From: Amoebophrya sp. A120
Taxonomy: Eukaryota > Protista > Dinoflagellata
NCBI GenBank assembly: GCA_905178155.1
Contig: CAJINV010000004.1
Coordinates: 7,096,358 to 7,160,357, forward strand
Direction: 5' to 3'
DNA: 64,000 nt
Part shown: in pieces, positions 1 to 60,700 of the stretch
How the letters are laid out: each line of letters opens with the position of its first letter
How positions within the stretch are numbered: position 1 is the stretch's first letter
Notes under the pieces: model-generated
Database searches by the model: none
What the model was told of the DNA's origin: nothing
What the model saw: the letters and a program-made list of their open reading frames with translations, nothing else
Made by a program: the position numbers and the translations under genes

Positions 1-2052
1 ACAAGCGCTTTTCGGTCTGCGTCTCGCCGTATCAAGTGTAAAAGTGTCTGGGTCTGGAAGATTGCGAGATTTGTCATGCATATTTCGGATCACGCAAATG
101 GCGTCTGATGCAGGCAAAAGCATCACAGGTTTTGAGCACGCCTCATGATGCCTCTGCCGCATGAGAAACTTCCTACTTGCGTGCCAAGAAATGGACAGCT
201 TTTGGCGCTCATGCAACACAAATTTTTGTGTGTTCCAGAGTTTGCGTCACAAGTTCCAACCCTTCCACACCCAGACATTTTTGCATTTGATACGCCGTGA
301 CTCGCTCGAGTGCATCGAGTCAAACCACTTGAAAGCAGCGGCATCGTCGTGCCGGAACAGCTGGACCCGCAGCCGTCTCGCGTATCTCTCCCGCTGCTCC
401 CACGCGAAATACCGCCCGCCGAAAAGCTTCTCGTGCTTGGCCCATTCCCGCTGCGGGAGCGAGAAGATGGCCGTCGTAATTGCCAAAATCACACCGATAT
501 GGATTGCAAATATGTCTGGGTCTGGAAGATTCCGAGATTTGTCATGCGGTTTTTACAAGCTCTGCCAAGTCTGGAATGCAGGGCGTAGCGTCACAGATTC
601 TGCAGCCCCTTGGTGATGCCTACTCTGCATGAGAAATGCCCTCTCAGCATGGCCAGAAATGGGGACCTTTTGCAAGTCATGCAACACAGATTTGTGTATG
701 ATCCGCAACACGCATCACAAGTTTGCATCCTTCCAGACCCAGACATTTTTGCGTTTGATAGCTGATCTGCTTTTTCCGGTTGTAGAGCTCGTCGATTTTA
801 TCCCGCGCAGTTTCATCGCTTTCGTATCAAGTGCAAAAAAGTCTGAATCTGGAAACTTGTAATGCTCGGTTGGGAATAGTGAATGCTCTGCAATGCACAG
901 CCCAGCATGAGAAATATCTGCGCTACTTAGTGTTGCGCTCTTCGCATGACAAGCTGCGTTTTTGCATGACACCAGGCAAAAGGCTCTCTTCTTGGACACG
1001 CATCACAAACTCCCCAGTCATGCCAGACAAGCATGACAAACTTGCATCCACATTCTTCCAGACCTCCCAGACATTTTTGCATTTGATATTTCGGCTTGTT
1101 CGGCTTGTCCCCCGAACGGCAACCACGTTTCTGGCAGAAGCTCAGGACAGTATTTCTTCGCCTCTTCGTATTCTTTCAACCCGGCGTGCGCTTTCAGCTC
1201 CAGCAGCAGGCTCTCGATGACCTCCCAGCTGCGGTCGTATAGGAAGCTTTGACCTTGTTCCAGGGTGAGGTTTTCAAAGACGTCCTGCAGCTGGTCCCCG
1301 AAAGCATCACCACTTTTGAAAACCTCCTCCGCAGGTCTTCCCGCCAAAAATTTCTCGCGGTCGAACTCCCCCGCAGAGATCACGAACTGGAAGTATGGAG
1401 TTGTAGAACGACGGGTTATTTTTCGGCGTTTTTTGTTGTTATTGTTAACGCTTGCTGCAGCAACATCCCGCTGGTCGTCATAGTCATCAGCTTCCTCAGC
1501 CTGATCTCCGTAGTAGTCAATCTCGGTTGCGGGGTCCAAAAACGCCTCTGGGTGATCATGCTCATAGGGAACAAGGCTGTCTGGTGCGGAGGTCCCACGT
1601 GTACTAGTTCCTGTGGACGAGGTAATATTTTGATTGCTCTTCCCTTCCATCGCAACTGCGAGATCATCTTCATCGTGGTAAGGCTCCTCCTGCTCAGCAT
1701 CATTATCATTTTCCCAACACTCTTCTTCATCCCCCGCCCTCCAATACAGCCACTTTAAACGATGGACCGGCGGCCGCAGCTCTTCTTCGGCCAAAATGGC
1801 GTCGAGAATGACGTCTTGGTTGCACAGATCTGCGACTGTTCTTACTTTTGTCGGGTCCACAAGCTGTTCGACGACTTTGGAGCCACTCATGTTACGAATC
1901 TTGATGGTGCGGAGCCGTTTTTTAACATTGGCTTTATTCGAGGAAGTTGTGGAGGTGGAGTTACTGGAGGTGGTTGCAGGAACTGCGTGGTTCGCTGCGT
2001 TCCCAGTCGTGTTTGAGTTTGACATTGCCGTGCCCATGGTGTTCTGGTTCAT
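1..2052 (-). CDS. Hypothetical protein (3'-partial, runs off the window), interrupted by three family A introners
   Basis: The 344-aa ORF 1018..2052 continues in frame through 761-824 (ESDETARDKIDELYNRKKQI) and 293-497 (GVILAITTAIFSLPQREW...) when each element plus one DR is removed. No family recognised. Confidence 0.7.
30..292. mobile_element. Introner family A (263 bp)
   Basis: TATCAAGTGTAAAAGTGTCTGGGTCTGGAAG...CCCAGACATTTTTGCATTTGATA; DR CGCCG. Confidence 0.9.
498..760. mobile_element. Introner family A (263 bp)
   Basis: Family A TIRs; imperfect DR ACCGA/GCTGA. Confidence 0.85.
825..1088. mobile_element. Introner family A (264 bp)
   Basis: Family A TIRs; DR TTTCG; interior closely similar to 35697-35949. 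Confidence 0.9.
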
Positions 2053-6200: not shown

Positions 6201-6327
6201 GCTCCTCCTGCGTTATCCCGTCGTCGGTCAGCAGCATGTCCATATCGGCATCCAGCATCTCGTTCAACCTGGCGGTCGAGGAGGACGACCCGGACGTGCC
6301 GGTTTGGATACCGTTGGCGACGGCCAT
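3298..6327 (-). CDS. DUF2009/UPF0652-family protein, multi-exon
   Basis: Exon peptides [99 protein letters not shown] and FRHGFDGSGDDGGSCVDGRLTSCWNWC match DUF2009 motifs as I recall them. Confidence 0.85.
4685..4898. mobile_element. Introner family I (214 bp)
   Basis: TATACAAGAAAAAAAACTGTGTGAGTGTA...TACACTCACATAGTTTTTTTTCTTGCATA; DR CCTCC. Confidence 0.9.
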
Positions 6328-7743: not shown

Positions 7744-8896
7744 TTACACCATCCCGATCAACTGAAAGAAAATTGGATAGCGAAAGTACATGAAGTCGCC
7801 CGCGCTGACCCGGAAGTTTGGGTTCCAGGCGCCACCGAAGGACGGCAGGGAGATGGAGGGCATGGAAATCGCTGGCATGGAGATCTCCGGAAGGGAAAAC
7901 GCTGGCCCGGTGTCCGCACCCAGAGCCATGTTGCTCACCCTGTGGTATGTTGATCGGCATTTTATCGAGAAGATTCTTTACGATTCAATTAGGCCACGAC
8001 CGTGCATGATCTTCAGCTAAAGTATCACAAACATAGTTGTGTTGAAATACACACATCAAACTCCGGGTTCATTGGAGGTGAACAAACAAGAACAACACAT
8101 CAAAAGCAAAATAATACAGTTCCGTCGGATCGGACTCCAACAGCAGAGCGACGATGGTCAATCCGAACATGATCTATCCACAGTAAATTTCCTGTACACG
8201 TACAAATGCAGTATCTGCAAGACAAAACTTGCCTTCAATCCTAGTGTAGCATGACAAGTTGGACACTGCAACTTAGCGAAATTTGTCATGCATTTTGTAC
8301 ATGTACAGGAAATTTACATTGCATATGATCAGCGCGAAGAGCAACATCAAGTCGCCGATGAAGGACCCAGATTCGTATTCCGAGTAGACAGATGTGCCGT
8401 CACTTCGGAGAGACATGGTAGTCCCCTGCGTCATCATCGTTCCGTCGGCGCCTGTAGTCGGTTTCGGTAGCTTTTATTTTTGCATAACAAGAACTGCAAC
8501 ACGAATTTCTCATGCCTCATCTCGTGGATAATTTCACAGATGTAGAAATTGATACGTCCTATCACAACTTCAATGATCTACAGTTTCTCATAGTCATGCT
8601 TCATTCTTCCACAATAAAGAAAGAAATAACATACGCATGCTGTTCTTCAGGTCATCCGAGCTCATCTGCATGCCAAAGATCCGCTTGAAAAAGTTCGGAA
8701 TCCGGCCGGTGCGCATGATCGGCTCCGGGGCTTCGGGCTCCTGCGAGTACAGCCCCACCTTGCCGCTCACGTCGCCACCGATGGAGCCGGCGCGGACGCC
8801 CGGGGCCGCCTTGTTGAAGGCGCCCTGCTGGAACATCTGCGCGCGGTCCTTCACGGGGGCCCGCATGGCCACGGTTGAACGGACGGGCTGCGCCAT
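7744..8896 (-). CDS. Small unknown protein with a hydrophobic segment, multi-exon, one introner
   Basis: MAQPVRSTVAMRAP... joins ADGTMMTQG...FIGDLMLLFALI, then MFGLTIVALLLESDPTEL across the 8175-8325 element, then probably IFSIKC...MALGADTGPAFSL...GMV*. The last junction is uncertain. Confidence 0.55.
8175..8325. mobile_element. Introner family B (151 bp)
   Basis: TATCCACAGTAAATTTCCTGTACA...TGTACAGGAAATTTACATTGCATA; DR TGATC. Confidence 0.9.
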
Positions 8897-9141
8897 TTTT
8901 TTGTTTTGTGGTGGTCTGAGTTCTTTTCAAAAGTTTTCGTTTTAGTTTAGCAGGATACTTCCTCGTACTTTTCTTGAGAAGATTTGTTTTGAAAGTTAAG
9001 TTTTAGAGGCGATAACGGGGTTGTTGCGTTCTTCTGACGTCACTGAAGTAGAATTAGGGATTTTATTTGGAGGCAGATTGGTTGTACAGCTGTGCTCACG
9101 ACCAGCAAAGACGGCGCCAATAGGAGTTGGTGACGGTGTGA

Positions 9142-9447
9142 TATGGAACTGTCAGGATTGAAATGGACAAAGTTGAAATGATTTGCCATGCATAAAGTGG
9201 GTGCCCGTTGGTGTCCAGTTTCTAAGTGGCACATGACAAATTTGGGAAGAGCCGAAGCCCAGTTTGTCATGCTGTTTGGGTAAGGAGGACGCCTTTTGTC
9301 ATGCTACTTTAGCAGCTCTATTGGTACCCTCAACAGGCTTGCAATCTGCTTCCCTTTCCTACTCAGCAAGACAAGCATTTTGTGGCTTGCATTTTATGCA
9401 TCACAAACTATTTCAACTTTGACGATTTCAAACCTGACACTCCCATA
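9142..9447. mobile_element. Introner family C (306 bp), not in a recognisable CDS
   Basis: TATGGAACTGTCAGGATTGAAAT...ATTTCAAACCTGACACTCCCATA; DR TGTGA. Confidence 0.9.
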
Positions 9448-12400
9448 TGTGACAGGGCGAGAATAAAGGACGATGGAGGAAAATTCTGGACGATGCTTTG
9501 AGTGCACGATGTACTAGTGGTCAGGCAGCATTTACAAAGCACAAGTAGAACGAGGACCGATTAATCACTTCATACCGCTGTTAGGACGAATACTTCCACG
9601 GTGATTTGTGAGCAAGTTACCGATACAGTTCCAGTTTTTTTCGTCTTTGTACCAGCATGACAGGCTGCCCGAGTTTCAATTTTTGCTGACCAAGCAAAGT
9701 CAGAGACAGACCGATTCAGCTGGTTTTGTTTTCCTGTGTCGCAGCTTCTTGTTGCATCATGATCAGGACCGATTATTTACGCGACGTGTAGCTCTACTTC
9801 GCGGTTCTTCTACAATGTGGAGGAACACAATATCGAACATCGGGCGCTTGAATCCAAGTGGATTCAATGCGACAGCAGCGCCTTGTATTAGGGAACACCA
9901 TGCCTGCAGTTTTGATTGCAAACTGCAGCATGGCAACCTTGACTATGATTTCTTTTTCTAGCGGAATGATTTATTCTTCATCGTATGGCCTTGGTCAGAA
10001 TCAGATTTTCATCGTTTGCTTTAAACAGGATTTTCCTTTACTTCCTCAAGCCACCCAGTCAGGAAAGGTGCACCTCAACAGTTCACTGAGTAGACTGTTG
10101 GATTTATTCTCTCGGATCAATCACAAAACGTCCTTTTATTTTGTCATGCACATCAACCTCACTCCAACTATAGTAAAGCAAGTTGAAGTTTCGCATCATG
10201 CTGCGATTATACCACCTGCAAGACAAAATAATTCTCGTCCAAACCTCCAAAAATTCTCTCCTTGTTACCAAAGCCAGTTTTCATCTTCGGCTCCTTCTTT
10301 TTTATGCATTTTCTCTTTTTGATAAAAGTCTAACTAGCTAATCGTATTCCATATGCTTAATTTTGAAAATCGTACACGCGACAGCTTAATGGCAGCACGA
10401 CTCGCCCATGTCACCTCCGTGCGCGACTACAAAATCTTAGATCGAAGCGACTGCTAGTCGTTTTTAATAAGAAAAAGATGCAAAGAGGTGAGTAAATACT
10501 GCCATCTCTACCAGCAATAAGTACTCCGCTTGGATGCTGTGGCTTCGTCTCTATTCTACAGCAGGCTCCCCGTGATCAGATCCGAGCAAGCCTGCTGAAA
10601 TGACATGAACCCAGCCCCTGCAGCCGCTATATTTGGCTTGTTTTTAATTGTGAAAGGAATCTATCCGAATAAATCAAATCAATCAGAGTGAGGGCTACTA
10701 CAACTTCGTGAGGACCTTTCGCATTGTACCCGCAAGAACTCTGCTCCAAAACGCCAAAAAAATAGAAGTCTCGTTTCTTCTCCACCACGTGTGTAATTGT
10801 ACAAACATTAACATCATCCGCCCCGATAGGCAGACAGAATCGACTCGCTCGAGCTTTCATTGTGAAAGGCGGGAACGGTCATGCCCTCTGTCAGTCGCAC
10901 GCTGGGCGAAGATAGAGATACAGCGACACTCTATTGCGGAGGACTTCTATTTCTAGTTCTACCCTTTCTTCTGTTCCAAAAAGTTTTATTATCGCAAGGC
11001 GAATACTTTTCCGCTTCATATTTTTTCTTATTGAGCAGCTAGTAGAACTATTTCGTCCTACTTCTTCTACCTTAACAGGTTGTACTATGTTGTCGTTTAG
11101 TCGCTGTCGCTGTCGATGTCGCTAGGTTTGTGTTCTTCTTGTCGTTCTTCTTGTCCTCAAATCATATTCACATTTGCCACCGTGCATAATGTCGTCGAAG
11201 GCAGCAGGGAAAAATGGTTGTAGGAGCGGTTTTTGAAGAATAGAGTCGTCTGGTCGTAGTTCTAATGAGTCGCTGAGGTTGGTGTAGACATCAGCCGGCT
11301 CTACTTCTGCAGAGAGATTTCATTCCGTAGTTAAGAGGGGTGTAGTCTTGCTTCTCTCTCTTTACTCTTCTTTTGATACGTGGTGCGGGGCGCTTTTTTC
11401 TGCTTATCACGATGTAGTCCTCTGGAGTAGCAAGTGTAGCTCTCGCTCTCGGTTGTTGTGCGGAGGTGGTAAGTAGTACACCATGACACATCGAGGGAGC
11501 AAGGCTGTCTAGGAATTTCCTATTTGAAGTAGCTTCTGTCCAAAGTTTTAGTTTTTATTTTACCGGGCAGCAAGTAGTAGCTTGATAGTAGATGCAGAGT
11601 CAGTTGTCAACAACATGTAGCCCTCTGTGCAGCTTTTTATCGAAAAATCACTGTACAGAACTACCAAGGCGCTGCGACGTCGTGCTGCTGCACCGTGAAG
11701 AAGTTTTTTACTAGATCAGGCTCAAAGGGAAAGGAATTGCATTTGCATTTGCAAGTAGTCAGGGAAAATATAACAAGCAGAGATACTTTCGTATACCTGA
11801 CATCATCAAGACATCGGGATGATGAATAGACAGCCCTCAACATAGCTGCACGAGACCCTTGATGTGAGGTACTAGTAGAGATGAAGCCAGAACTACTACG
11901 GCGATTACATAATATTAAGCTTCAGCTGGGCCTACTTCTCAACATCAAGGCTCCTGCTGCAAAATAAATGCTTGCTTCTACTCGGTAAAAGTCGACAAAG
12001 CCGTGGTCTCGTCACAATCAATGAATTTACAATACAACCCGGTGTCCAAACAGGAATTTGCTAAAAGGAAAAAGATGGTACTGGTATTGAGTAGTGGTCT
12101 CGCAGAACTATAATGTTGACCCCACAAGTTTTTATCCTTCTCAGGTGGTATCTTCATGGGGAACAAATAAAGCACTGTGGTAAAAATTCGAGAGTAGACG
12201 ATGACGAGCACAGCTTCAAACAGAGAAGAATCCTAGGGCAGTTTTTTTCGTCGTGCGGGGGTAGGTCGAAGATTTTAACAACGCTACCGCTGACGCCAGT
12301 GCTGTGTAGAAGTTGAAAATATAACAAAGATGATCGGAAATAAGCAGAGCTTACGTGCGTGTAAGTTTTGGTAAAAAGCTATTATCCATCGGCGGAGGTG

Positions 12401-13246
12401 GGGCGGGGGAGAGCAGGCAAAAGATAAAGTCATGTCACTTTTGGACACAATCAGGGAGGGAAGCATAGAATCTTCATGCTGGAAATAAATCATTTGGCGT
12501 GAAGTACTACTAAAAAACTTGGGCGAGCAGGAGGGTAAAAACACGGGATAATTAACCATGGCGGTTGTAGGCCTTCAGTGCTGCGTTTTTTCGGTGCTCA
12601 AAACGAAATGGAAATGCTTCTCATCTGCGCGGCGTGGCCGTGATTCTACGGTCGTTTATAGTATGATTAGAAATCATATACATGATATGCGTAATATAGG
12701 TAATTTGCGTCGTTTCAGAATGTCGCTTCATATTGTAGCAATTTTTCTAGCCGTTCATTTTTGTTGCATATCACTGCCCGAATTTCTCGACCTATACTAG
12801 TACGTACTCAGCTGCACTGTAGTACCCATCGAAGGCCTTCGGAGCTGTACAGATAGCAGCTTATAGTGTACAAGAATCAAAGCCTATTCCAGCTTCCTTC
12901 TATGCGTGTTTGCTTTGTCTTAGAAGTATGTCACTTTCTTCTTATTCTTGTCTATTGCATTTAAACCATATTCGAATTTATTTTGTCTCGTCTCCTCGAG
13001 GTTAATATTTTTCCGTGATTAATATATTCTTTCCTCGTTCTTCTAGTTAGGCAGAGGTGCGCCGCGCTTTTTCATACGAAAATAAACACAGCAGGCACTA
13101 CAGAATGAGAATACTTTTTCTTGCATATTTTTTCTCCTTCTCGCTATTGGTTTCTTTAGGAATTTCTTCAAATTTCTGTTTCCGCGACCTATTCATTGTT
13201 ACGACGCCAACATTGTTGAAGACGATAAGTATCACTTCGTCCTTTC

Positions 13247-16200
13247 TCACATCATTTTCCCGTCTATAAAAGTGCACAACTCCCCCTCCCCCTCATTTGT
13301 CATGCAAATTCCCAAATCCAGACTGTGCCTCTTGGCACTGTTTGCATGACAAGTTCTGGTAGCCCACAGAGCCCTACAACCCAGTGTGGATTTGTCATGC
13401 AAAACCGGCATTCTTGCTGATGCTTATATTGCCGTTCATGCTATACAAATGAGGGGGAGGGGGAGTTGTGCACTGTCATACCGTCCATGTCTTCCGAGCG
13501 TAGTTGGATCGGCGGCAACGGAGCGTCTGGGCCCGGGAACTCCGCCTCAATTCCGTATCCTGAGTAAAAACGTACCCACACCATAGTTGTCACGCAACTC
13601 TGCATGCTTAAAATGTTTCTCATGCGGAGCCCCATGAGAAGCATTTTCTAATGCGGTTTTGAAATTTGTCATGCTCCAATCAGCACGAGATACTAGATCT
13701 GTAATGCTGCTAAACTAGCTCAAACAGCACTACACTACGCGGACAAACTTGTCATGCCAAACAACCAAAGCTGGCTGATTTGTCTAGCAGATTCCCCATC
13801 CTGACTCTGGTGTGGGTACGTTTTTACTCAGGATATTCCGTTTTGGAAAATCAAGGGGCGGTACTGCTTGATGGGGATACCGTTCACCGGAGAGTTGCCT
13901 GTAGTAATATAATATTAAACACGTTGCCATTTATTTCGATAGTTAACGATCACGCACAGCTGCAGCTGAGGTGCACATTCCGGCGGATTTTTGTAGCGAA
14001 CACAAAACAAGAAAGATCAAAAAAATTCAATACGGTAAACTTCGATATTGGCCTGCAATCCCTGGACTCTTGCGTAATTCACCTCGCACACTTTCGGACT
14101 GTTGTACGCTTTCAGCTTAAACTTGTGAAAGAGCTGTAGTTTTTGTTTTCATGGTCATTTTTGTGCGTCGCAAATGAATTCTCCCATTTTTGCTGTCTTC
14201 TAACAAAATCCCCAAAATCGTCATGGCATTCTATTCTTGGCATTCGCTTTTACAGGACAAAACAAGTTCCAACAAAGGCAATTCAGTTGTACCCCGAGAA
14301 ATCTCTTGGCGTCTTCCGGCGTGACAAAGTTGACGAACGCATACCCCACGTTGCACCGGTTTCTGAAGTCGATGGGCAGGTATCAACTGCAAATGTATCT
14401 GGGTCTGGAAGAATGCAAGATTTGTGATGGAGATTTTCCATGACCCATGAGGTCTGGCATGCAGGACCTAGCATGATAGATCCTGCGAGACCTCTATCAT
14501 GCCTATCTTGCATGAGAAACTGCCTCTGAACTTGTCCAAAAGTGGACATCTTTTGGTATATCATGCAACACAAATTTTTGGCACGATCCAGATTTAGCAT
14601 GACAAGTTGCATCCTTCCAGACCCAGACATATTTGCAATGCATAGCAGGTAGAAGAAATCGAATTTGGCTTCAAAGCCGTTTTCGTTTATATCCTGTGCA
14701 AAAGTATCGTATTCGTATAAATGCAAGTCTTGCATTACAAATATTTTTCTTAAGGTAAATTAGCATGACAAATTTTATTTCTCATGCTGAGGAAATTTGT
14801 GATGCATTTCTACGAGTACGATACTTTTGCAGTTCATAATTTAGCGTTTTCAGCAACATCGGCTGCGTGTACTTGTTCGGAATATTACCTGTTTATTTTG
14901 ATGTACAGAAAAATTGGCTCGGAGCTCCTGCGACAAGTTCAGAAAGCGAAGCAAGATGGCCCAAGAAAATAAACCATAACCAAGTTGTACCCATGCTGTC
15001 AGCACGACTGCCGCGCTAGCTGTCGCTGCAACATAAAAAAATACTTGCTTAAAAAAGCATTTCGCCAGCACAGAAAAAAACTAATCAATACGCAGCATCA
15101 TCGTTGTCCTTGTGTCTTTGACATTGGGATCGCCATCCTTTCCCTGTTGCTGATCTTTCCCGCCTGTCCTCCAGGAGTTTTCGTAGTTGTGGTGATCTTT
15201 CCCGCTACCCTTACCTCCGTACCCGGAATAGCTCCCCTTTTCACTTGCGGTCCCGGGGGTCTTGCTGCCATACCCGGAGGCAGACGAGTTTTTGCTGCTG
15301 TAGCCGGAAAATTTCGGATGCTGCTGCAGTGCGGCCGACGATGGTGGAGTTGTGTACTGCTTGACGTTCGTCCCGTGATAATTATTGCCATCACCATTCC
15401 CTTGGACATTATTCACCGTCGTGGCGATTCCCTGAGCAGTAGAACTACTCCCGTTGTAGTTCCCTGCTGCACCGTGGCCTTGGTGCTGCTCCACGCCAGA
15501 TCCTGACCTTTTCATCGCGCCGGATAAGTGGATCGCGCCATAAGTTCCAGTTTCGTCGTGCATCTTGTCTAGCCGGATCTTCTGGTCCTTGTGGTGGTTC
15601 CCGTCCGGGATGTGTATCCTCGCGAACTTTTTCGGGTGCTTCTTCTTGATTTGGATGCACTGCTGCAAAAAGTCCTCATACTCCGCGACGGAAACCAACC
15701 GCACCGGGTGATCGGGCAGCGAGGTCGGGAGGGAGGAACCCGAGGCCGCGGAATCGCCGACGAGGGGCACATGGTACCCACCAGACGTCGCGAGAAGGCC
15801 GGTGGTAGCAACCGAGTTGTCGGATTTCTGTTTTTTCAAATTTGAGCAATAAAAATAGATGCAGCCAATGCCAATAAAAAACCGCAATTCCACACGACGC
15901 CGATGCCGAAAAATGCAAATCACAATAATTCGCAGAACTACTACAACGTCAAAACGTTAAGGTGGGCTCCTCCTACATGAAATCGAAAATAGACGAAAAA
16001 ATGTAAAAAAACTTTTACTTTTCCGCAAGAAAACAGAAACAGCTATAATATATGCAGTCAAAAGTACCTTCTCATTCATCTCGCCGATTTTTTGTGCTGC
16101 CAAGGCTGCGATGTGTCCGCCCGGCGGTACGGGCAGGTTGTTCAATATGGAAGCGTCAGGTTTGAAATCGACAAAGTTGAAATGATTTTTCATGCATAAA

Positions 16201-20777: not shown

Positions 20778-20982
20778 CACGAGGTACATTTTTGCGTAAC
20801 GGACCTCGACCTTCTCCATCATCAAGAAGTACACTGACTCATTATACTCGTGGGCTGCAAACTGCATTTTTACTAAAAAACTGCTCCGATTTGATGTTCC
20901 CGGGAAGAAAGTGGCTCGCGCTTGAGCGTAGAAGTTCTCGTCAAATCGGTAATATCCTCGAGAACAAGTCCTTCCAACTCAC

Positions 20983-45100: not shown

Positions 45101-48100
45101 TCGAGTGCGGGGAAAAAAGCACAACTGGTGCCTGCCGTGGCAAAGCAAAAGGCTCAACTTGAAAAGCTGAAGGGCATTCGCGTGGTATGAAATAGACGCT
45201 GATCGTTTTAATACTCCATCACAGCAGGCTGCAGAATCTTACGCACGATGTTATCACGTCTGAAGCATCTTCACAAGCAAACACCACACCACCGCGTAAC
45301 GCGTGTTGCAGGACCATATATTTCTTTTGGACAAGAACCACGTCGAAACCACACATATTTTCAAATCAGAATACTGTTCCCTGGCCACTTGAGCTTCCTT
45401 CTCCAGCTGCCGTATGCTATCCACCGTCGACCTCCTTGTCTCGGCCAGCGCTTCGACCGTTTCGTTTCGATTTCGATCTACCGTGGAATCCAGTGTCTGG
45501 AGGGAAAACTCAACCTCCTTGTTTTTCATGGCTTGCTGGTTGGAAAACCCGGAAATTTCCTTCTGAATCGGGACTAGATGGGCGACGACGAATTCCTTCA
45601 ACTTCATGTCAATGAGGGAGTCAATGTCCGCCTTTGCGTTTTTCAAGTTCTGCTGGAGCATCTGATACAATAGATTGTGTGTACCAAGCATGTTCTGCAT
45701 CACAAACGCCCAACATCTGCGTTTGAAATTCTTGCATCACAAGTTCAACGTCATCTCTGTAGTCTTCTCTGTCTTGAAAATCAGTTGGAATTCTTGGATA
45801 TTAGTTTTCGGCTGGCACCCGGTCCTCCGTAGAGGTGGACCGTACAGCTCGAGAAAGTGAGATTTTGTCATCATGATGGGAGAGCAAAAGAACAATTGGA
45901 TTTCTGCATGACAAAACACCTTTGTGCTGTCATTCTTGCATGACAAAAAAACCAGAGATTCTTACCTGCTCCGCATGTTCCCCGGTGTGCCGTATTCTGT
46001 CCTCCATCTTCGCCACGCTGGCTTTCAAGCTACCGCTCATGTTTTGAATGTTTTCGACGATTTTCAACTCATCCAATTCCTTCAGCAACGCTCGCTGCAC
46101 CCGCTCCTGCGTCGACTCATCTGACGCAAAGTCGTCCACTTTCTGCGACAGCGCGGTCACCTGCATGGCGTGCTCTTGGAGGTTTATACCTTTTTTAATT
46201 TTATTTCGCCGCTCAATGAATCAATCTTGCCATCGTCATGCACCTGCACGACAGCGAATAGAATGGAATAGTATGTCTGTCGCTGCTGCAGGAGATCGTG
46301 CATGAATTACAGAGAAAAAAGCAACATTCCTATACGCTGCGCTTGCTCCATGGACATCATCTTGTCCAGCACTTGCTCCTTCAAATTCAGCGATTCCTTT
46401 TCCAAATGCGCAATCTTGTCCCATATCCTGTGCAAAAGTATCGTATTCGTATGAGTGCAAGGCTTGCATTACAAATCTTTATCTTACGGGAAATCCGCAT
46501 TACAAATTTTCTCTCTCATGCTGAGGAAATTTGTAATGCATTTATACGAGTACGATGCTTTTGCATTTCATATCCCAGCAGAGCTCGCGAAAGGTGCGGT
46601 TTTGGTCCTCCAGGAAACCTATCAAATGTAAAAATGTCTGGGTCTGGAAGATCATGCTGTTTCTGCATGACACACAAGGTCTGGCATGGAAGCTCTAGCA
46701 TCACAGGTTTCGAGAAGCTTCCGCAATGCCGAATCCGCATGACAAATCCCCCGTTTTGGTGACAGAAAGTGAGCAGCTTTTGCTGCCTATGCATCAGAGA
46801 TTTTTGTGTGTTCTGAAATGCGCATCACAAGTTGCATTCTTCCAGACCCAGACATTTTTACATTTGATAAAACCAAGACGTTCGTTGATCACGGCGACGC
46901 GTTTGGTCTCTATTCTGTGCAAAAGTATCGCACTCGTAGTAATTGCATTTATGCATTACAAATCTCTTTCTCAAGGTAAATCAGCATTACAAATCAAATG
47001 CTGGGCTAATTTGTAATGCAATTTATAACAGTACAATGCTTTTGCAGTTCATAGTCTCCTGCTCCAAACTATTGCGGAGAAAGCTGTATAGAAAACGATT
47101 TCTTGCATTGACACTTTAATATGAAGGTGGGTCACGACGCTGCAAAATCTTCCGCGCATTTTGTGGTGCACGGAAATGACGTTGGATCGGAGTTTCTGTT
47201 CTTGCATTGTGCGACTCAGATTATCCTTGAAGCACATAGAAAAATAGCGCAACAAGGATCTTCAACTGGTCACTGATTTAGTGTAGCATTCGTAAGTTGA
47301 GCTTGCACCCAACATAGAATTGTAAATTGGAGTCTCAGGCAACGAAAGCGGATTCAAAGCATGAATGCGAAAGGACTGTGCGTGGTGCCAACAAACGCTT
47401 ACTTTTAAATCAAACAGAAACTTAATTTTGTGGTGCACGGAGATGATGTTGTAGCGGAGTTTCATTGTGCGACTCAGATTATCCTTGAAGCACATGAAAA
47501 AAAGCACAACAAGGATCTTCAACTGGTCACATATCTATTGTAGCTTTCGTAAGTTGAGCTTGCATCCAACATAAAGTTGTAAGTTGGAGTCTCAGGCAAC
47601 GAAAGCGGCTTGGTACTTAGATCACGTGGACGTGAAATGTTAAAAATGCGTACTTGCATGATGCAGGCAGAGGAGAGTACTGCGACAGAACTGTGCGTGA
47701 TGGCATCAAAACGAAGTGAAGACATCAAGCAACGATTCAAAACCATTGTAATACGCGAGATCCGTGGTCGACTGCGGTCCGCCGCCATCTTGTCCTATCC
47801 GCGGCAACGGCACCGGGGAAAATTGCCGTGGATCCGCGCCGGACAGGTAGTTGTGGACGACTTGCTTGGGCGTTTTGTTCCCGCTGGTCGAAGTCAAGCT
47901 GTTGTTCAGATACCCTCCCGGGCCGAAGCCTCCTCCACCGAACCCACCTCCACCTCCGCCCCCAGACCCGGCTGAGCCACCAAACTGCGCATCAAGGCCA
48001 ACATTCATGCCGAGCGCTGCTGGGGGAAGTGAACCACTGCCGGAGAGTGAACCGCCATTGTTCATCGCGAGCAGTGGATTTGTCGTGTTACTGGCTAAAC

Positions 48101-51797: not shown

Positions 51798-54700
51798 TCA
51801 CGCTTCCTCCTCCTTCTCAAACTCCTCCGCGTACTCTTCTTCCGCAGCAGCAGCTGCTGGCGCTTCCTCCGCCGCCGGAGCAGCAGCAGCCTCCTCCTCG
51901 GCAGGAGCGGGTGCAGCAGCAGCCTCTTCTTCCGCCGCCGGAGCAGCTTCCACTTCCGCTGCAGCCGGAGCTTCTTCCGCGGCTGGGGTGGCTTCCGCTT
52001 CTGCCACCGCATCTTCCGCCGCTGGTGCGGGAGCCTCCTCTGCAGCTTCCGCAGCCGGAGAGGCCACTTCCTCCTCCGCAGCTGCTGGCGCTTCTTCTTC
52101 GGCGGCAGCAGCCGGTTCTTCTGCAGCCGCAACTGGCTCCTCCACCGCTGGCTCTGCTTCCGCGGCTGCCGGCTCTACTTCCGCAGCGGCCACTGCCTCG
52201 TCAGCCGCAGCCGGCGCCTCCTCCTCCGCCGCTGGCGTTATTTCCTCCGCAGCAGCCGGTGTTGCCTCCTCCTCTTCGGCTTGTACTTCCACAGCTTCCT
52301 CTTCTGCAGCCGGCTCGACCGGAGCCGCAGGAGCATCTTCTGCTGCTGGAGCTACTTCTACTTCGGCCGCGGCTGGGACTACTTCTTCTCCCTCCGCAGC
52401 AGGAGCACCAGCGTTCACCGGTTCTACTACTTCCTCCCCAGCACGACCAGCAACTTCTGCCTCCTCGACCACCGCAGCAGAAGTTGTCAAATCGATTTCC
52501 ACGGGACCCGTCTCTTCCTTCTCGAAGTCATCCTCTGCGTATTCGTCGACCTCTTCTTTTTTCTCACTCTCATCTGCAGTTGGCAGTAAGTGCGCGAAGG
52601 GGTTGTCCTCCTTCTCCTCTTCCACCGTCTTCAGATTGTCGTCCTCCACCTTCTCGTACACCTGCGACTTTGCCCGGCCGAACGCCGCCCCGCGCTTCGG
52701 TTTCGCGGAAGGAGCGCTAGACTGCGGCTCGGGATCCGAGTTCACCTTGGAGGTGGAAGGAGCAAATCCGACCTTACTCGATTTCCTCCCTCCGGCTTTG
52801 TCCTCGTCACTGCTTGTCGGTGGGAGGTCGTCAAACGGGGATTTGTTCTTTTTCAGATCTTCATTCGCGGCTTTTAATTTCGCCGCGATCTCCTGCTCCT
52901 CATCGACGTCTTGTCGGAGGGCGGCGTCCAGGTCGACCGTCTTTTCACTGTCAAATCGGCTGTGGGACATGGACATGGACCGCTTGTTCCGCATCGCCGG
53001 TCGCCCGTCGAGAACAGACATCGTCTGGGATTTGGAAACCTGAGATAGAATGTTTTTTACGTTGGTTTAGATGCAAAAACAACTTCTTCCTTGTATCGAT
53101 GAAGCATCAGAACAGAAACACAAGCAGGTGCAATGTTGTCACGACTTCCCGGTACGTAGGATCATGTTCACACAGCTAGGTAAGGACGCATGCATGACAC
53201 CCTCGCATCGGAAACGAAATTCAAATAAACAGCACTTCAAATCTATCCTCTACCCTTTTCTTGATTGTCTCCGTCTCCGTGTGGTCGAACATGGCCGCGT
53301 CCATGGTTTTCCTTCTTCGCAACAACTCCTTCTGCGCCCCCTTGGTCTGGTGCAGTTCGGCGGTGCCGTGGACTAACAACGCAGCGGATTTCGCCGCCTC
53401 CACCGATCCATACCACTGGATTTTGTACTGGTTCTTGTCCAACTCCACCATCAACACGTCGAGATCTTCCAAAATCAGTCGCTGCCTGCCCGGCTCCTTG
53501 ATCAGTTCCTTGTAGAAGAACTTCTTCAAGTTCGTCTTCCGGGCGAATTTGCTCCCCCCGTCCTTTTCTGATACAAACCCGATTTCCTTGCAGATCCCCT
53601 GGAAATCCTCGTAGTCGACATCCGTTTTCCTTTTATTCTGGTTCTCCTTGATCCACGCGAGCATACCGCCCCACGCCATGACCACGCAGCCCTTCCACTC
53701 GAGAAGTGCGTTTTTGAAGGAGAACACGTCGTCCCGGAGAGCCGGTTCGAACGCGGCGAGGCCGAGGAACCCGCGCTCGAGGCCGCCGAGGGCCTCCCAG
53801 AGGTTTTTGATGTTTCCGGTGTAACCGAAGGTACGGGCCGCCATGATAAACTCGTTGTAGGAAAGACGACCTTGTTTCGTGGTGAAGAGGAAATAAATTT
53901 TAGATTCAGTGACATTTTTCAATTCTCAAACCTCTCCATCAAATCGATCATGCAATTTTCCATAATGCTCATTATGCTCATACAACACGATGAAAACACA
54001 CACAATATGCTTTCTCGCATCTTCAGAACCGACATTCAGGTCCGACTACTCGCATGACGGGGGCTGGTGCACCGAAAAAAAGTAGCACTAATACTAAACG
54101 AACGCCATTGCCCAAAATAAACGAAAACCTCAAACTCTTATCCTTATGAAAATACCATTTCCGTCCGTATCCAACCCTTCTCGCCACGCGCGCAGCACCG
54201 ATCCGTACCTGTGGATGATCATCTTTTTGAACCCATCCACCGATTTTCCGATGATCGCCTGCATTTTCTTCTCGTATTCTTCCTTCTCCTTGGCCATGTC
54301 CGCCATGGCGGTTTGCGCGCGAGAAGACCCGAACGCGTGCAGTTTGTTCCAGTTCTTCGCGCGCTCGTGCGAGCCGTACCACTCGTTTTCGTAGGTTTTC
54401 TTGTCTAATTCGATCATCAAGATTTTCAAATCCGACAAAATCAGCGCTTTCCGGTGGTTGTCGGCGATCAACTGCTTGTTGAAAAACTTGAACCCGTCCT
54501 GCGACTTGGCTTCAAATATAACCCGCTCAGGTGTTACAATCTCAAGCGTTACAATAGAATATGGAAATCTGTGATGCAAGATGGCATGATCTAGCCAAGT
54601 CTCATGGGATTGCGCATGACAAGTTCGGGAGCCCTAAACCCACCGAAAATCTGGCGAAATTTGTATTGCAAAAGGTGGAACGTTGTGCGAGTCCATCATG

Positions 54701-57700
54701 CTCATCATGCAACACAAATTCCAGATTCTATTGTGACGTTTGAGATGGTAACTGATTTGAGCAAGTCATATCAAACCCGATGATCTTCGAGACCTCCTGG
54801 AACTCGCCCCAGTCAATCTCCTCGTTCTTCGTTTGTCCGGGCTGGAGGTCCAGCATCGCGGACCAGGCGTCGACGATGGTGCCGTACTTGGTCAGGAGGC
54901 ACTTTTTCAGCTCCATCAGATCGTCTTTGAGCGGCTTGTCGAGGTGTTGCATGCCGAGGAAGCCCGCCTCTTCACCACCCAGAACAACCCACAGGGTCTT
55001 CATGTTGCCGGCGTAACTGTTTTTTTTGGAGGGTTTTTGGAAGATTTTTGTGTTTCGTCCTGCTTGTGCTTTCGCATAATGATAATTGGTTTCCACTATA
55101 TAAGCTGTTGGTTTCCAACCATACTGATCTGGCTGTCGAACAACAACAGACATACAAACACAATGTCCCTTTTCTGGCCAGAAAAGTATGAATCTGGAAA
55201 GAATTGTGCAACGCCAGTGTGCGCGCTCTGACAGAATACTGCCATATCGAGCCCGCATAGCGAGGTAGTTGCCTACTTTCGTTTACCACAGATTAATTAC
55301 GGATTCTCGCACAAAAAAAGCGAGCGCCCGGCCTATTCTGTGGAGAATTTTTAACACTAACAGTACAGGAAATGAGAAGTGCAACTACGACGTGTTGGAT
55401 CTTTGCCTTTGATTTTTCTCCGAGGAATAGGTGCTCTACAACTTCACAAGGATCTCGTGGCCGCGTGCGACTGTGAAACGTACTGCTTCACAGCTGGTAC
55501 TAGACATCGCGTGTGTAGAAAGATCCTCGTGTCGTAGACACTTGCTTCCAGTACTTGGTAACCGGCACAATCTGAACCTCGCGATGAATCGGAGGACTAA
55601 GAAGCGACCGCAAAACCAAAAGCTAGTACTAGCACATCTACATCATCTTCAAAAACAAAGCTCTATCTAACTATACCCTAATGTCCTCGCCGCCTGCATG
55701 AATTCGTTAAAGGACAGCCTTCCGTTGCCATCACTATCTAACCCGAACCGCCAGGCCCGGGCCATGCTGCCGTGCCGGCGCACGATCTGCTGCTTAAAGC
55801 CCTCTTCGGATTTCGCGGCGACGATCTGCGCCTTCTTGGCCCGCTCCTCCTGCACCAGCGCTTCCCGCTTCTGCAGACCCATAAACTGCGAGATGCGGTT
55901 GGAAAAGCTCATGGACTGTCGCTCCTGGAAGGTCATTCTCGACTTTTCCGCGGAGGTAATCTTCGGCGCCAGGATCATCTCGTGGTGGCCGGACAGGTAG
56001 TTTTTCATCAGGAATGGATCCAAGTCGCCCATGGTCAGGTACTGCCGACCCTGCTCGAGCAGAAAAGTGTAGAACAGCTGCTTGGTGTCACCGGTGTACC
56101 TGATAGAAAGGATAAAGGATTCGAGGTGTTCATGAGGATCACTGAGTGATGTAGATGTGAGGTTGTAGAAGATGCATGAGAAAAAAGTTCTTGGATCGCC
56201 AAATGTGCAACACAAATTCCCATAGAACAACAAGCTGTACCCCAGCTCCTTGGCTTTCCTCTTGAACTCTTCGAGTTCTAACCGGCCGGAGCGATCCTCA
56301 TCGAGCCCTTTCTTCCAGGCGTCCACTAGGTTTCCGTATTTCTCGTTACAAAGACCCAGGAAGGTGTCGATGCGGGTTTGTGCCTTAAAGGGGAATCATT
56401 TTTTCGGTGTCAAAAGGCTGTATATGATTGAGTGGGTGTGTGGAATACACACCTATTAGTTACACATGCTGTTCCACCAACTTGACAATTTCATTGCGTA
56501 TGCGCGCACGACAACAAAGGCAAAGCATCAGTTCGTGTTGCACAAAACCAACAAAAAAAATCCTTTGTACATCCGGGTCCAGCTCTCCGAGCGAAATGTT
56601 CGCCGATTTGTCTTCATCGAGGGTTTTAAACAAAAGCGAGATGTTCCCTGTGTAACCCAAGGCTCGCGCTGCGTTGCAGAACTCGACAAAAGCGAGCTTG
56701 TTGCCCTCGTTCGTAACTTCACTGCACATCCCAGCGCGCCACCCGCGGGCGACACTGCCGTATTTTCTTCGCAGCATCTCCTTAAAACTACGCACGTCCT
56801 GGGGCCCGAGATCTTCACCCGTGTCGATGTAGGACGCCCGCTTGCGGAGCATGGCTGTTTTTTATTGAGTTTAAACTTCTTGCTGGACGAGGGAAGAATT
56901 GCTGATATCATGCGTACACTATGGAGAAACTGGAACTGCCCCGATGCACGAGACACAATCATCTTCTGAACCGCAATTTAATGATCATCATGTACACACA
57001 CTGACACACAGGTCGTGTTCTTCTTCTTACAGTAGTAAGTTCTCGTTTTACTCAACATAAAAATTCCAATACAGAATTTCCTTTGCGCCAGCAGCTTGGC
57101 CCTTTTCAGCTGATTTCTGATTGTCTCCTGCTGCCTCTCTTCAAAGGACATCTCCATCGGGCCCTTCCGTGGGCTGGTATATCAAAAGGAAAAATCCCCC
57201 CTCCCCATATCAAAAGGAGGTTTCTGATGCTGGATTTGCGTACACAAATCAGCTTTGCATTGCAGAGCGGCACTGCGAGCAGATCTCCAGGCTGAGTAGG
57301 GGCGTAAGTGTCTAGCTGCTCAGCATGGCAAACGGCTAACCTTTAGGCCCAACAGCATGACAAATCGCCTCCATAACGGGGCGGAAGCTCCTGCCCTTGT
57401 CTTCTTGCAAGACAGTTGTGATTTGTGACCTCAAATCTGCAACACAAATTTTCGAAGTCATACCTTTTCAATATGGGGAGGGGGGATTTTTCCTTTTAAT
57501 ATGGTAGCCGGGGAATTTTCCGGACTCTCCTCCGCCACCTGGTCTTTACTCGGATCCAGCAATATCCTATGCAAAAACGTCCCCGCCCCATAGTGAAGAT
57601 GGGGGATTGGCTAGACAAATCCACAAGTTTTGGGTGTCTTGCATGACAAATTTGGACTCGTAGCGTAGTGCTGTTTGAGCTAGCTCTGCAGCATTACAGA

Positions 57701-60700
57701 CTCAGTATATCCTGCTGATTGGAGCATGACAAATTGCAAAGCACGATTGAAAAATGCTTCTCATGGGGCTCCGCATGAGAAACAATTTCAGCATGCAGAT
57801 TTACAATACAATTATGGTGTGGGGACGTTTTTACATAGGATAAGCAAACCGCGGTAGTCGTCCAACCGCATGGCGGCGCCGACCTTGCTGTCGAAATCGT
57901 CCACCTGCATGAAATTCCGGTCTTCCAGAAGCAGCATTTTGAACATCTTTTCCGGCTCCATGTCCGTGTATCCGAGTTCCTTGCACTTCTGATTCCACTC
58001 GTGCAGTTCCACCCGCCCCGACTGGTTCAGGTCAAAGTGACAGATCCACGCCTCGAGGAGGGAGCCTGTGGGTTTATTTGGAGAATAAAGTTGTAGTCCT
58101 CCATGCGTTCTTTTGGATGTTGTCATGCGAAATAACTCCATTTGAAGGAAAAGGGACAAATGGAAAACTTGCTGTTGCAACCCAGAATCTGAATCATACC
58201 ACCAGCGAACTACAAACAGACATGTTTTTCGATAAAACAGGATATTGTTCTCCGCACCTTTTTTCTCGATGCAGCATCTGCGGAAATTGACGATAGCGTT
58301 AAATGTGGGCTCGTCGAGTTCTTTCAGGTATCAAATGCAAAAGTGCCTGGGTCTCGAAGATTCTGAGACTTGTCATGCACATTTTGCATGAACCACGATG
58401 TCTGTGATGCATGCCCTAGCATCCCAGGTTTTTTGAGGGATTCTCAATGCCTAATCCGCATGATAGATGCCCTCTCCGCGTAGCAAAAAACAGACTCCTT
58501 TTGCTGCTCATGCAACACAAATTTTTTAGACATCCAAATGCAGCATCACAATTTACATTGTTCCAGACCAAGACATATTTGCATTTGATATCAGGGAGAT
58601 AACACCACTTCTATCGTCGTCCATCTCCAGGAAGGTTCCTTTCACGTTACCTGGAGAAGTTGTTCGCTTTGTATGTTCGAAGAGATGATTGAGAGACGAA
58701 CGGGCGTATGTGTAAGTTGTACCTGGTCCGTGCCTCATGCTCATCATCTTTCGCACAAACACAAATTTTTCCCAAACTCTGTTTTTCATCGGATGACGGA
58801 AAAATGCAACAGCAATGAAAATCAAATCCCTCAGTACCATGAAACCCGCATTCTCTGCAAGCGGCGCAGAACTCTGTGAACGACAACTTCTTCGTTGCGT
58901 CGCAGCCCAAACCCTTTCTCCAAGCGCGCCACAAGTTGCCGTATTTTCGCTTCAGCAAGGCCTTAAAGTCGTGCACTGTGTAGGCCGACATAGTCTTCAC
59001 CAAGTGCCGACCCTGCTCGTGCGCCAGCTCCTCGCGGGCACGGACGGTCTGTTGATTTGATTTTTTGTTAATCAGAACATTTTATCATTTGTCTTGCGCG
59101 ATTGACAGCGTCACGCAGAAGTAAAATTTCCACGCGGAAGTCAGAAAAACAAAAACAACCTTACTATACCATGAGCCTTCTGTAGTCCGCCGACGTTTCC
59201 GTCAATGCGAGCATTTGGTCGTCCCCTCGGCGCAGCGCCAGCGCTGCCACGGGGTCAAACTCGTCGATCGACAAAGTTTTTTTGAAAGGCGCAAGCAAGA
59301 AGGGCCACACCTGCTCCGGGTCCCCCTGGTACTGCAACTTCTTGATGCGGGTGACAAACTGGTGTTTTTCCACTTGTTGCGTGTTGTGCGGGTCCAGGAC
59401 GCGCCAGGCGGCGAGCGTGTTCTTCGCCAGATTTGCGATGCTGTGAGATGCAGATGGATCGATTCGGCGAAGATCGATGTGTTGTTTTATGGTGCGTTTA
59501 TTTGATGTTAAGTGTTACAACATCTCGACCAGCAGCACATCAGCGACAAATTCAGCTTCACTTACAATCAAGTAGGTCAGTTCTACCACAACCGCTAGGG
59601 TCTTTAAATGCGTTCAGGATCTTAAATATTTTTTTTCATACATGGGATCCGCCCAAAGCGCCGCGCCTCCGACCGGGGTCGCCACGTTGGCCGCACAGCC
59701 CGCCGCCATGATCTGAGCCAGGGTCTTGCCGCTTTTCAAATTTAACACCGAGAACGCCGCATCTTTTTCGAAAATGCGACTGCACTCTTAGCCTGGGGCC
59801 CCTACCTTGTGGCCCGAACACCTGGACCACCAGCGGCCAGGCCCCGAGACTTCCGGCCGCCGCGGGAGCGGCGGCCGCGCGCCCACGACCGCTCGCGCCG
59901 CTCGGAATTCCGGCCTGGCGCCGCCCGCGCCGCTCGGGGCGCTTCCGGCCGCTCGGGCCCTTGCCGGCGCTCCGGGCCGCTGCCGGGAGCGGGACGGGCT
60001 CGAGCGGCGCAGCGAGCGGCCCGGGCGGCTGCGCCGCTCGGACCGCCCGGGCCGCTCGCGCCTCTTCGCTGCGTTCGCGGCGCCCCGGTGCGCTCGGTGG
60101 AGCGGAAGGCTTCCAGGGGCGCGAGCGGCACCGCCCTGCGCCCCGGCGCGGGGGCGGCCGAGCGGCCCGGACGGCTGCGCGACGGCTTCGGTCGCGCGAC
60201 AGTTTTTTTTTTTTTGCTGCTACACATTAATTTGAAAAAACGAACGCGATTTTCTTCGATCTCGCTCTCCTGCCATTTTGCGAATCCGAAAAAACGAACC
60301 GACGAGCGCGCGCGCCCCACCATCTTTGTCCCCCATGTGAGCCAGACTAGAATGATCTTGCGTCACTGGAATGCGGTTAGCCATGCAAAACCAAATGTAA
60401 GCTTTCATTTTGCGAACGCATTTAAAGCGCCGAGCGGTTGTGGTAAACTGACCTACATAATTACAAGAATCAGACAACCAATCGAAAAAAAATCCTTTTT
60501 ACTCCTCGTAAAACTGCTTCAGAGTTTGCGCTGCCATGGGGTGGACCTCTTCCAGGTGCACGGTTCCGACCTGTTTCGTGTCCAGTTCTGCCCAAATTGA
60601 CTTGATATCTCCACCAATTCCGTGCTGCCGGCAGGCGTTACAGAACTCGTTGAAGTGCAGGGCGCCACCGTAGCTGAAGCCGTACCGCCAGCCCGCGCAG

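What the first reader, a model, noticed from the sequence alone, without database searches (positions are those of the whole stretch)
30..58590. Multi-family TAT...ATA introner system: 37 TIR elements acting as non-GT-AG introns
Seen: 37 elements in about 10 families with different TIRs. All but one run TAT...ATA, all have a 5-bp flanking DR (32 perfect), and 36 interrupt exons. Sense-strand DRs share no consensus (for example TCCCA, ATCCA, TACCA, CCTGC), so most offer no GT-AG in any register. Known: IR/DR-bounded invasive introns were described in Amoebophrya (Farhat et al. 2021), so the class is not new; as far as I know the excision machinery and the mobilising enzyme are unresolved. Inference: one transposase type making a 5-bp stagger at TAT ends mobilises all families, and a structure-guided splicing route removes them.
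Basis: partly seen in the sequence, partly recalled or inferred. Interest (0 to 1): 0.85.

Follow-up and report, generated by a model that had tools for sequence, protein, structure and literature searches.

The report
Amoebophrya transposon introns without GT-AG
These are the already described mini-transposons of a marine parasite of algae that sit inside genes and are cut out of the RNA exactly although they lack normal intron ends; new here is evidence that their TAT end is likely read as a relaxed version of the host's ordinary splice signal.

Summary
Confirmed: 37 TAT…ATA elements with 5-bp direct repeats (32 perfect), 36 in coding exons; only 2 allow GT-AG. The window encodes an Amoebophrya sp. 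A120 protein (100%), and the elements match the A120 introner elements of Farhat 2021, so the system is known. RNA reads remove element plus exactly one repeat (6 direct joints, 8 more by contig arithmetic; single joints, no retention). Families sit in both orientations. New here: in 409 transcription-oriented elements (mostly related public contigs), the 5' first T never mutates (0 versus 9 at the 3' last A), the third T tolerates C, and all 10 RNA-supported canonical donors are GTAY. The end therefore likely acts as an N|UAY spliceosomal donor without the G, cutting between repeat bases 4 and 5; RNA and the annotated protein bound the cut to after base 3 or 4. This favours a relaxed spliceosome over purely structure-guided excision. 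All families share an internal GCATGACAAAT motif (453 of 456), often 31-32 bp apart, suggesting one mobilising protein. No transposase was found; a Ginger/IS3EU-like integrase remains inference, partly anticipated by Gozashti 2025.

The parts
30..292 (-). TAT..ATA element, 263 bp, family A, sense DR CGGCG
   Evidence: absent (element+5) from annotated protein P0034
498..760 (-). element, 263 bp, family A, 2-mismatch DR (sense TCAGC / TCGGT); informative for the cut register
   Evidence: P0034 has Ser at the junction, which needs the upstream copy's base 3
825..1088 (-). element, 264 bp, family A
   Evidence: absent from P0034
4685..4898 (-). element, 214 bp, in DUF2009 gene; GT-AG possible at the predicted cut
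8175..8325 (-). element, 151 bp; excised in RNA (skip 156)
   Evidence: contigs of X1 and X4
9142..9447 (-). element, 306 bp, outside coding sequence (5' end of a transcribed region); excision not shown
   Evidence: (table 8)
13265..13480 (-). element, 216 bp; excised (skip 221)
   Evidence: 295 + 81 reads
13556..13835 (-). element, 280 bp; excised (skip 285)
   Evidence: 346 + 102 reads
14381..14644 (-). element, 264 bp, family A; excised (skip 269)
   Evidence: 276 + 82 reads
14690..14838 (-). element, 149 bp, 1-mismatch DR; excised (skip 154) keeping the downstream copy's base 5
   Evidence: 270 + 76 reads, one joint
16146..16458 (-). element, 313 bp; excised (skip 318)
   Evidence: 159 + 69 reads
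21246..21467 (-). element, 222 bp, in LeuRS gene
   Evidence: contig arithmetic
21831..22143 (-). element, 313 bp, LeuRS
   Evidence: contig arithmetic
22314..22598 (-). element, 285 bp, LeuRS, 1-mismatch DR; opposite orientation to its relative 13556
24191..24345 (-). element, 155 bp, LeuRS, 1-mismatch DR
25053..25305 (-). element, 253 bp, LeuRS
25942..26210 (-). element, 269 bp, LeuRS
26249..26401 (-). element, 153 bp, LeuRS
26472..26616 (-). element, 145 bp, LeuRS
27360..27800 (-). element, 441 bp, family-A ends with a unique interior; just before the LeuRS HLGH motif
   Evidence: no RNA joint listed
31939..32246 (-). element, 308 bp
32801..33068 (-). element, 268 bp, family A
34820..35062 (-). 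element, 243 bp
35697..35949 (-). element, 253 bp
36009..36272 (-). element, 264 bp, family A in the opposite orientation
37599..37911 (-). element, 313 bp, opposite orientation to 21831; in metallo-beta-lactamase-fold gene
42618..42880 (-). element, 263 bp, sense ends TAT..ATG
43695..43956 (-). element, 262 bp, family A
44008..44161 (-). element, 154 bp, opposite orientation to 46911
44236..44386 (-). element, 151 bp, 1-mismatch DR, opposite orientation to 8175
46424..46572 (-). element, 149 bp
46620..46869 (-). element, 250 bp; GT-AG possible in another register
46911..47053 (-). element, 143 bp
54517..54770 (-). element, 254 bp
57180..57501 (-). element, 322 bp
57563..57842 (-). element, 280 bp, opposite orientation to 13556
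58329..58590 (-). element, 262 bp, family A
20748..27915 (-). host leucyl-tRNA synthetase gene carrying 9 elements and canonical GTAY..AG introns
   Evidence: Pfam tRNA-synt_1 and RBD_LARS1; RNA contig; introns
9968..17095 (-). host gene with RRM-like C-terminal motif (recalled resemblance; no Pfam hit among exons scanned), 5 elements and 4 GT-AG introns, all seen spliced in raw reads
38012..38453 (-). 38th repeated element of another type: TGTA..TACA ends, 4-bp DR, one copy of the shared motif; not in the finding
   Evidence: 82% identical copy with other flanks in L017

Best explanation
These are non-coding TIR mini-transposons (the Amoebophrya A120 introner elements) that are removed from the RNA together with exactly one 5-bp repeat, likely by the host's own spliceosome reading the TAT end as its GTAY donor without the G. 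Shown: insertions carry a 5-bp duplication and no target preference; excision is exact and leaves no footprint; families lie in both orientations. Inferred for splicing (about 0.6): the 5' cut falls between repeat bases 4 and 5, so the intron starts N-U-A-U; because the ends are inverted repeats, either orientation offers this donor. The 3' cut falls 4 nt beyond the ATA without AG, probably set by the conserved AU at -7/-6 (possible branch site) and/or the end-to-end hairpin. Inferred for mobility (about 0.55): one integrase-like DDE transposase (Ginger/IS3EU/GingerRoot-related) acts in trans on all families, probably binding the shared GCATGACAAAT motif.
For: RNA: single joints of element+5 and zero depth in bins wholly inside 4 of 5 elements in both raw-read runs, near zero in the fifth. 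Direct joints for 6 elements and exact contig arithmetic for 8 LeuRS elements. Register: 346 reads at 14690 keep the downstream base 5, so the cut is at or before base 4; the annotated A120 protein has Ser at 498, so it is at or after base 3. Donor model: in 409 oriented elements the 5' T1 changed 0 times against 9 at the 3' last A (p=0.004); the 5' T3 changed 9 times (7 to C) against 2 (Fisher p=0.0003); orientation-blind control 5 vs 4. Against about 9.8 expected changes per position in 324 elements: 5' T 0, 5' A 1, 3' -2 T 2, 3' -3 A 2, 3' last A 8; no T>C versus A>G bias (40 vs 44). Canonical donors: 10 of 10 RNA-supported are GTAY, 38 of 54 predicted. Farhat Table S4: all 9 top A120 non-canonical types begin with N-T, all 9 of A25 with TT. 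The would-be first base is free (G127 A117 C92 T73) and AG at the acceptor is at background (31 of 409). All 15 multi-copy families occur in both orientations. Mobility: 276 of 306 unbiased 5-bp-DR hits are TAT..ATA; flat target composition; motif in 453 of 456 elements, 14 of 55 adjacent spacings at 30-33 bp with one element per cluster vs 2.5 expected, max 8 in 2000 permutations.
Against: No lariat, branch point or spliceosome dependence was observed. The asymmetry rests on 9 + 9 events, mostly from related public contigs whose strand was predicted, not from RNA. The lower bound on the cut comes from an annotated protein, not reads, and assumes one register for all elements. Canonical introns show no clear AY excess at -7 (13 of 41; neighbours 4-12), so the branch-site idea is unsupported. 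U1 snRNA was not detected in A120 (Farhat). Losing both the first G and the last AG is chemically demanding for known spliceosomes (own knowledge). Arm positions 17-22 do show a G-U excess (77 vs 41), so pairing may matter. No transposase in 55 window ORFs or 120 of 648 locus ORFs, and Farhat found none in A120. The raw-read libraries may derive from few molecules (one private insertion in 167 of 186 reads of X17 only).
Confidence: 0.6

Rival explanations
1. A non-spliceosomal, structure-guided enzyme (as proposed for Euglena nonconventional introns, or a tRNA/Ire1-type endonuclease plus ligase) cuts at fixed distances from the terminal stem and has its own sequence preference at the stem base.
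For: 35 of 37 elements are predicted to pair their first and last 20 nt (mean probability >=0.5), median z -7.3. No G or AG is needed. U1 not detected. Interiors can be replaced by large unique inserts while the ends are kept.
Against: Pairing alone does not explain the asymmetry: 5' U3>C (breaks the pair) is tolerated 7 times while 3' A>G (keeps a wobble) occurs twice. G-U vs A-C in arms 228 vs 214. The constrained bases coincide with the host's canonical donor.
Confidence: 0.3
2. The joints are reverse-transcriptase template switches across a hairpin flanked by short direct repeats, not splicing.
For: Hairpin plus direct repeat is the known substrate for such artefacts (PMC13149111 passage); all RNA data here are cDNA.
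Against: Zero or near-zero depth inside elements and one joint each. 34 of 36 coding elements would frameshift or contain stops in every frame if retained, including in LeuRS. Strand-specific selection on the ends cannot come from a library artefact.
Confidence: 0.03
3. The elements are cut out of DNA in a fraction of nuclei (IES-like), and RNA reflects that DNA.
For: Transposon ends and exact restoration of the target site.
Against: None of the 6 joints appears in the genomic-type run X13, though that run was too deep to count every joint. End constraints depend on the direction of transcription.
Confidence: 0.04
4. Mobilisation is by an LTR-retrotransposon integrase or several unrelated transposases rather than one dedicated Ginger-like enzyme.
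For: No autonomous TAT..ATA element found in 569 kb plus the window. A120 introner family 3 carries rve/Copia domain hits. LTR integrases make 3-6 bp duplications.
Against: Uniform TAT ends, 5-bp DR and one shared, phased internal motif across 11+ families; TIRs, not LTRs.
Confidence: 0.3

Closest known systems
Amoebophrya A120 introner elements (Farhat et al. 2021, PMC7789003)
   Same: Same organism label (P0034 100%). IRs start TAT + 7 nt + A-run, DRs 3-5 nt with a 5-bp example, about 240 nt, non-canonical ends.
   Different: The text read says no clear splicing signature and variable splice sites; here the DR is uniformly 5 bp, the register is bounded, and the ends show strand-specific constraint. 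The shared internal motif is not mentioned in what I read.
A120 family 38 of Gozashti et al. 2025 (PMC12130899)
   Same: [quoted passage not shown]
   Different: About 810 bp; the window's elements are 143-441 bp with no coding capacity.
IS3EU / GingerRoot DNA transposons (PMC10045372)
   Same: TA..TA termini.
   Different: TSD usually 6 bp, here 5; no transposase to compare.
Ginger2/TDD (PMC2836005)
   Same: TIRs; TDD-4/5 make 5-bp TSDs.
   Different: Termini TGTNR and AT-rich target preference; here TAT and no preference.
Fritillaria borealis non-canonical introns (PMC11282704, PMC13326754)
   Same: MITE-derived non-GT-AG introns removed by a modified U2 spliceosome.
   Different: They keep preferred ends (AG-AC, AG-AT); here both terminal bases appear free.
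Euglena nonconventional introns (PMC12501133)
   Same: TIR hairpin, DR at junctions, short motifs at fixed distance from the cuts (abstract).
   Different: Paired CDG/CHG code with a purine at the next exon and circular products; here UAY / AU, matching the host donor.

Membership tests
Amoebophrya A120 introner elements | Host is Amoebophrya A120 | tested here: met
   P0034 100% identical, named A120 by its source; L28e nearest other named relative A25, 63%
Amoebophrya A120 introner elements | IR begins TAT, 7 variable nt, then >=3 A | tested here: met
   End logo: TAT 99%, A 0.88-0.94 at 11-13; definition
Amoebophrya A120 introner elements | 3-5 nt DR at exon/intron borders, repeated, spliced in RNA, non-canonical ends | tested here: met
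MITE (non-autonomous TIR transposon) | Short, TIRs, TSD, many copies, no coding capacity | tested here: met
   36 of 37 have near-full-length copies in the loci
MITE (non-autonomous TIR transposon) | Cognate autonomous element or empty-site polymorphism | tested here: inconclusive
   None in window + 569 kb; whole genome not held
Ginger1/Ginger2 | TGTNR termini | tested here: not met
   TAT in 432 of 454 at both ends; definition
Ginger1/Ginger2 | 4-5 bp TSD | tested here: met
   5 bp
Ginger1/Ginger2 | Gypsy-integrase-like transposase | not testable with these tools
   no autonomous copy in hand
IS3EU/GingerRoot | TA..TA termini | tested here: met
IS3EU/GingerRoot | 6-bp TSD | tested here: not met
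   5 bp
U2-type spliceosomal intron | GT(GC)..AG ends | tested here: not met
   2 of 37 and 18 of 305 allow GT-AG in any register
U2-type spliceosomal intron | Donor positions +2 to +4 match host consensus and are under selection | tested here: met
U2-type spliceosomal intron | Branch-point adenosine and lariat | tested here: inconclusive
   A and U at -7/-6 constrained; no support from canonical introns; lariats not testable
Euglena-type nonconventional intron | CDG..CHG paired motif, purine at next exon start | tested here: not met
   TAT..ATA ends; next-exon base unbiased

The most novel reading that the evidence does not exclude
Amoebophrya A120 has a spliceosome that has dropped both terminal rules: it reads N|UAY as donor and places the acceptor by distance from an AU at the far end of the transposon, so any TAT..ATA insertion, in either orientation and at any site, is instantly a scarless intron; and one still-unfound integrase-like enzyme, binding a helically phased GCATGACAAAT array, spreads all families.
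Probability: 0.5. Interest if true: 0.8.

Novelty: already known. Interest (0 to 1): 0.5.

Why it matters
The elements themselves are published (29,850 copies in A120). How they are spliced and mobilised is open in the papers read. The strand-asymmetric constraint turns that question into exact predictions: cut position, invariant bases, lariat 5' end. If right, it would be among the most permissive spliceosomes known and would explain how a transposon can fill essential genes such as LeuRS (9 copies) at no coding cost. The shared motif gives a bait for finding the transposase.

Tried and rejected
Whole-genome search: no genome held. Viral-contig scan with the main TIR: 0 hits. Long elements: apparent long pairs were cross-pairings or elements with unique non-coding inserts; no transposase-like ORF. 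Pfam scans of 55 window ORFs and 120 of 648 locus ORFs: no integrase, transposase or RT. Rfam on the window: 0. Orientation bias as a sign of an internal splice signal: rejected, all 15 families occur both ways. G-U versus A-C test for RNA pairing: no overall signal. A sliding cut register, suggested by 39 of 67 DR mismatches being synonymous (p about 0.005-0.05 depending on assumptions): not supported by reads at 14690 (one joint), and GC-to-AT mutation bias could explain it. Branch site at -7 from canonical introns: not significant. Coupling of first and last intron base: no departure from exon background (p=0.32). The hexamer score preferred +5 over +4/+6 excision in only 27 of 37, so it was not used as proof. 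Run X18 held no reads of the gene. Earlier findings of this scan: none returned. Roy et al. 2023 was not held.
Full report
OBSERVATION. Inverted-repeat scans without assuming TAT and with flanking-repeat tests give 37 elements of 143-441 bp between 30 and 58590: 32 with a perfect 5-bp direct repeat (DR), 4 with one mismatch, 1 with two; 36 run TAT..ATA. Thirty Markov shuffles gave 2 perfect-DR hits in all, against 31 in the window. Genes are on the - strand. With element+5 removed, 36 of 37 junctions read through without stops, and successive peptides overlap coherently; 9142 is non-coding. Only 2 of 37 allow GT-AG in any register. If retained, 34 of the 36 coding elements would shift the frame or stop in every frame.

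IDENTITY. An exon of the first gene matches at 100% a protein named Amoebophrya sp. A120 by its source; the L28e protein's nearest other named relative is A25 (63%). Farhat et al. 2021 (PMC7789003; sections 10, 11, 12, 16, passages, supplement parts 2-3 as text) describe A120 introner elements with IRs starting TAT + 7 nt + A-run, DRs of 3-5 nt, 29,850 copies, no transposase in A120 and no U1 detected. The class is therefore known. Their logo figures (Fig. 3, S19-S25) are images I could not see and may bear on the novelty of the donor reading below.

RNA TEST. Laying RNA on 8000-27950 (16 elements) gave direct joints skipping element+5 for 6 elements, none of them in the genomic-type run X13, which was too deep for all joints to be counted. 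A LeuRS contig leaves gaps of 435, 237 and 435 nt. These are exact if 8 more elements each lose element+5 and five CT..AC introns of 170, 249, 179, 212 and 293 nt are removed (sums done by hand, and only sums are tested). 9142 and 27360 are not shown excised; 21 elements outside this stretch were not tested with RNA, of which 3 are absent from the annotated protein. Raw reads on 13000-17200 (2 of 3 runs held the gene) show one joint per element with 159-346 and 69-102 reads, no alternative joints, and zero depth in bins wholly inside elements, except traces at 13556 in X19 that carry other letters and foreign flanks. Caveat: these libraries may derive from few molecules.

LARGER SAMPLE. One end pattern hit over 150 places in public contigs (147 loci, 569 kb), with the same families up to 96% identical. 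An unbiased TIR scan found 276 of 306 5-bp-DR hits to be TAT..ATA. 419 further elements were catalogued, with flat target-site composition. All 15 multi-copy families occur in both orientations to transcription; 13556 and 22314, opposite members of one family, are both excised.

HOW THEY ARE CUT (inference). At 14690 all 346 reads keep base 5 of the downstream DR, so the cut is at or before base 4. At 498 the annotated protein has Ser, which needs base 3 of the upstream DR (annotation, not reads). In 409 of 464 elements whose strand could be called, the ends mutate asymmetrically: 5' T1 0, A2 1, T3 9 (7 to C); 3' last A 9, T 2, A 2 (p=0.004 and 0.0003). It holds in the 309 junction-confident and 373 non-window elements and vanishes when strand is ignored; background predicts about 9.8 changes per position in 324 elements, and the mutation spectrum is not strand-biased for T>C versus A>G. 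Host canonical donors are GTAY: 10 of 10 RNA-supported, 38 of 54 predicted. So DR base 5 + TAT equals N|UAY, the host donor minus its G, with the cut between DR bases 4 and 5. Farhat's Table S4 fits: every top A120 type starts N-T, every top A25 type TT, though aligner choice affects that table. The first base is free and AG is at background (31 of 409). At the 3' end the A and U at -7/-6 are constrained; a branch site is possible but canonical introns do not support that position (13 of 41). Hairpins are predicted for 35 of 37, yet G-U versus A-C arm mismatches are 228 to 214, with an excess only at positions 17-22. I commit to a relaxed spliceosome helped by end pairing (0.6) over a separate structure-guided enzyme (0.3).

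HOW THEY MOVE (inference). A motif, GCATGACAAAT, occurs in 37 of 37 elements (14.7 per kb against 0.44 elsewhere) and 453 of 456 overall. With one element per cluster, 14 of 55 adjacent spacings are 30-33 bp against 2.5 expected; about three helical turns suggests a DNA-binding array. A mild sense-strand skew (777 vs 647, copies not independent) is unexplained. The motif is also enriched in 31 selected canonical introns (14 vs 1.5 expected), which may be decayed elements. No transposase was found. TA..TA ends recall IS3EU/GingerRoot (6-bp TSD; PMC10045372 passages) and 5-bp TSDs recall TDD/Ginger2 (TGT ends; PMC2836005 passages); neither membership is met. Gozashti 2025 (PMC12130899; passages, SI legends, 50 of 58 A120 rows of supplement file 8) lists family 38 as Ginger with 5-bp TSD and TA/TA termini, and most other families as unknown superfamily.

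COMPARISON AND NOVELTY. Fritillaria (PMC13326754 passages; review PMC11282704 section 6) shows a spliceosome adapting to MITE introns but keeping preferred ends. Euglena (PMC12501133 abstract) uses a paired motif code. Other Amoebophrya strains are canonical (PMC12005148 passages). The donor reading, the fixed register and the shared motif were not in the text I read or in listings from searches; Roy et al. 2023 was not available and bioRxiv supplements were not opened.

VERDICT. Observation confirmed; system already known; mechanism refined into testable predictions. Interest 0.5.

Noticed in passing
window 38012-38453; L017 359-805: A second element type used as an intron: TGTA..TACA ends, imperfect TIR, 4-bp DR (Ginger-like hallmarks), 82% identical copy with other flanks; the window copy holds the shared motif and can be read as GT-AG.
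   Followed up: partly
L053 5001-5972: 972-bp element inside the RNA polymerase II largest-subunit gene, with perfect 24-bp TIRs and a unique insert of about 690 bp ending in an A-run between ~19-bp direct repeats, like a retro-inserted fragment; several other elements, including window 27360, carry unique interiors.
   Followed up: partly
window canonical introns, e.g. 45662-45965, 32313-32730, 31633-31818: GT-AG introns carry the element motif well above chance (14 vs 1.5), one pair 32 bp apart; possibly old elements that became canonical introns.
   Followed up: partly
window, all canonical introns: Donors are GTAY with no +5 G consensus, and acceptors are A/C-rich without a pyrimidine tract.
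   Followed up: partly
window 9968-13200: A 3' region of about 3.2 kb is continuously covered by RNA of the gene at 13200-17100: an unusually long 3' UTR.
   Followed up: no
window 15736: A one-base insertion in 167 of 186 reads of X17 but in none of X19 or the contigs: strain variant or amplified error.
   Followed up: no
window 16146-16458: The element contains an internal duplicate of its 3' end plus the DR (16422), yet RNA uses only the outer end.
   Followed up: partly
window 29100-30800, 39500-41100, 59700-60200, 63200-63600: GC-rich, intron-free intergenic blocks with GCGCGC repeats upstream of genes, no Pfam hits and no elements.
   Followed up: no
window 19681-19730 and 20721-20780; 25437-25470 and 25557-25590; 47090-47640; 50070-50410: Local direct duplications in non-coding DNA and in one LeuRS intron (seen).
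   Followed up: no
window 51750-52420: Long Ala/Glu/Pro-rich low-complexity coding repeat.
   Followed up: no
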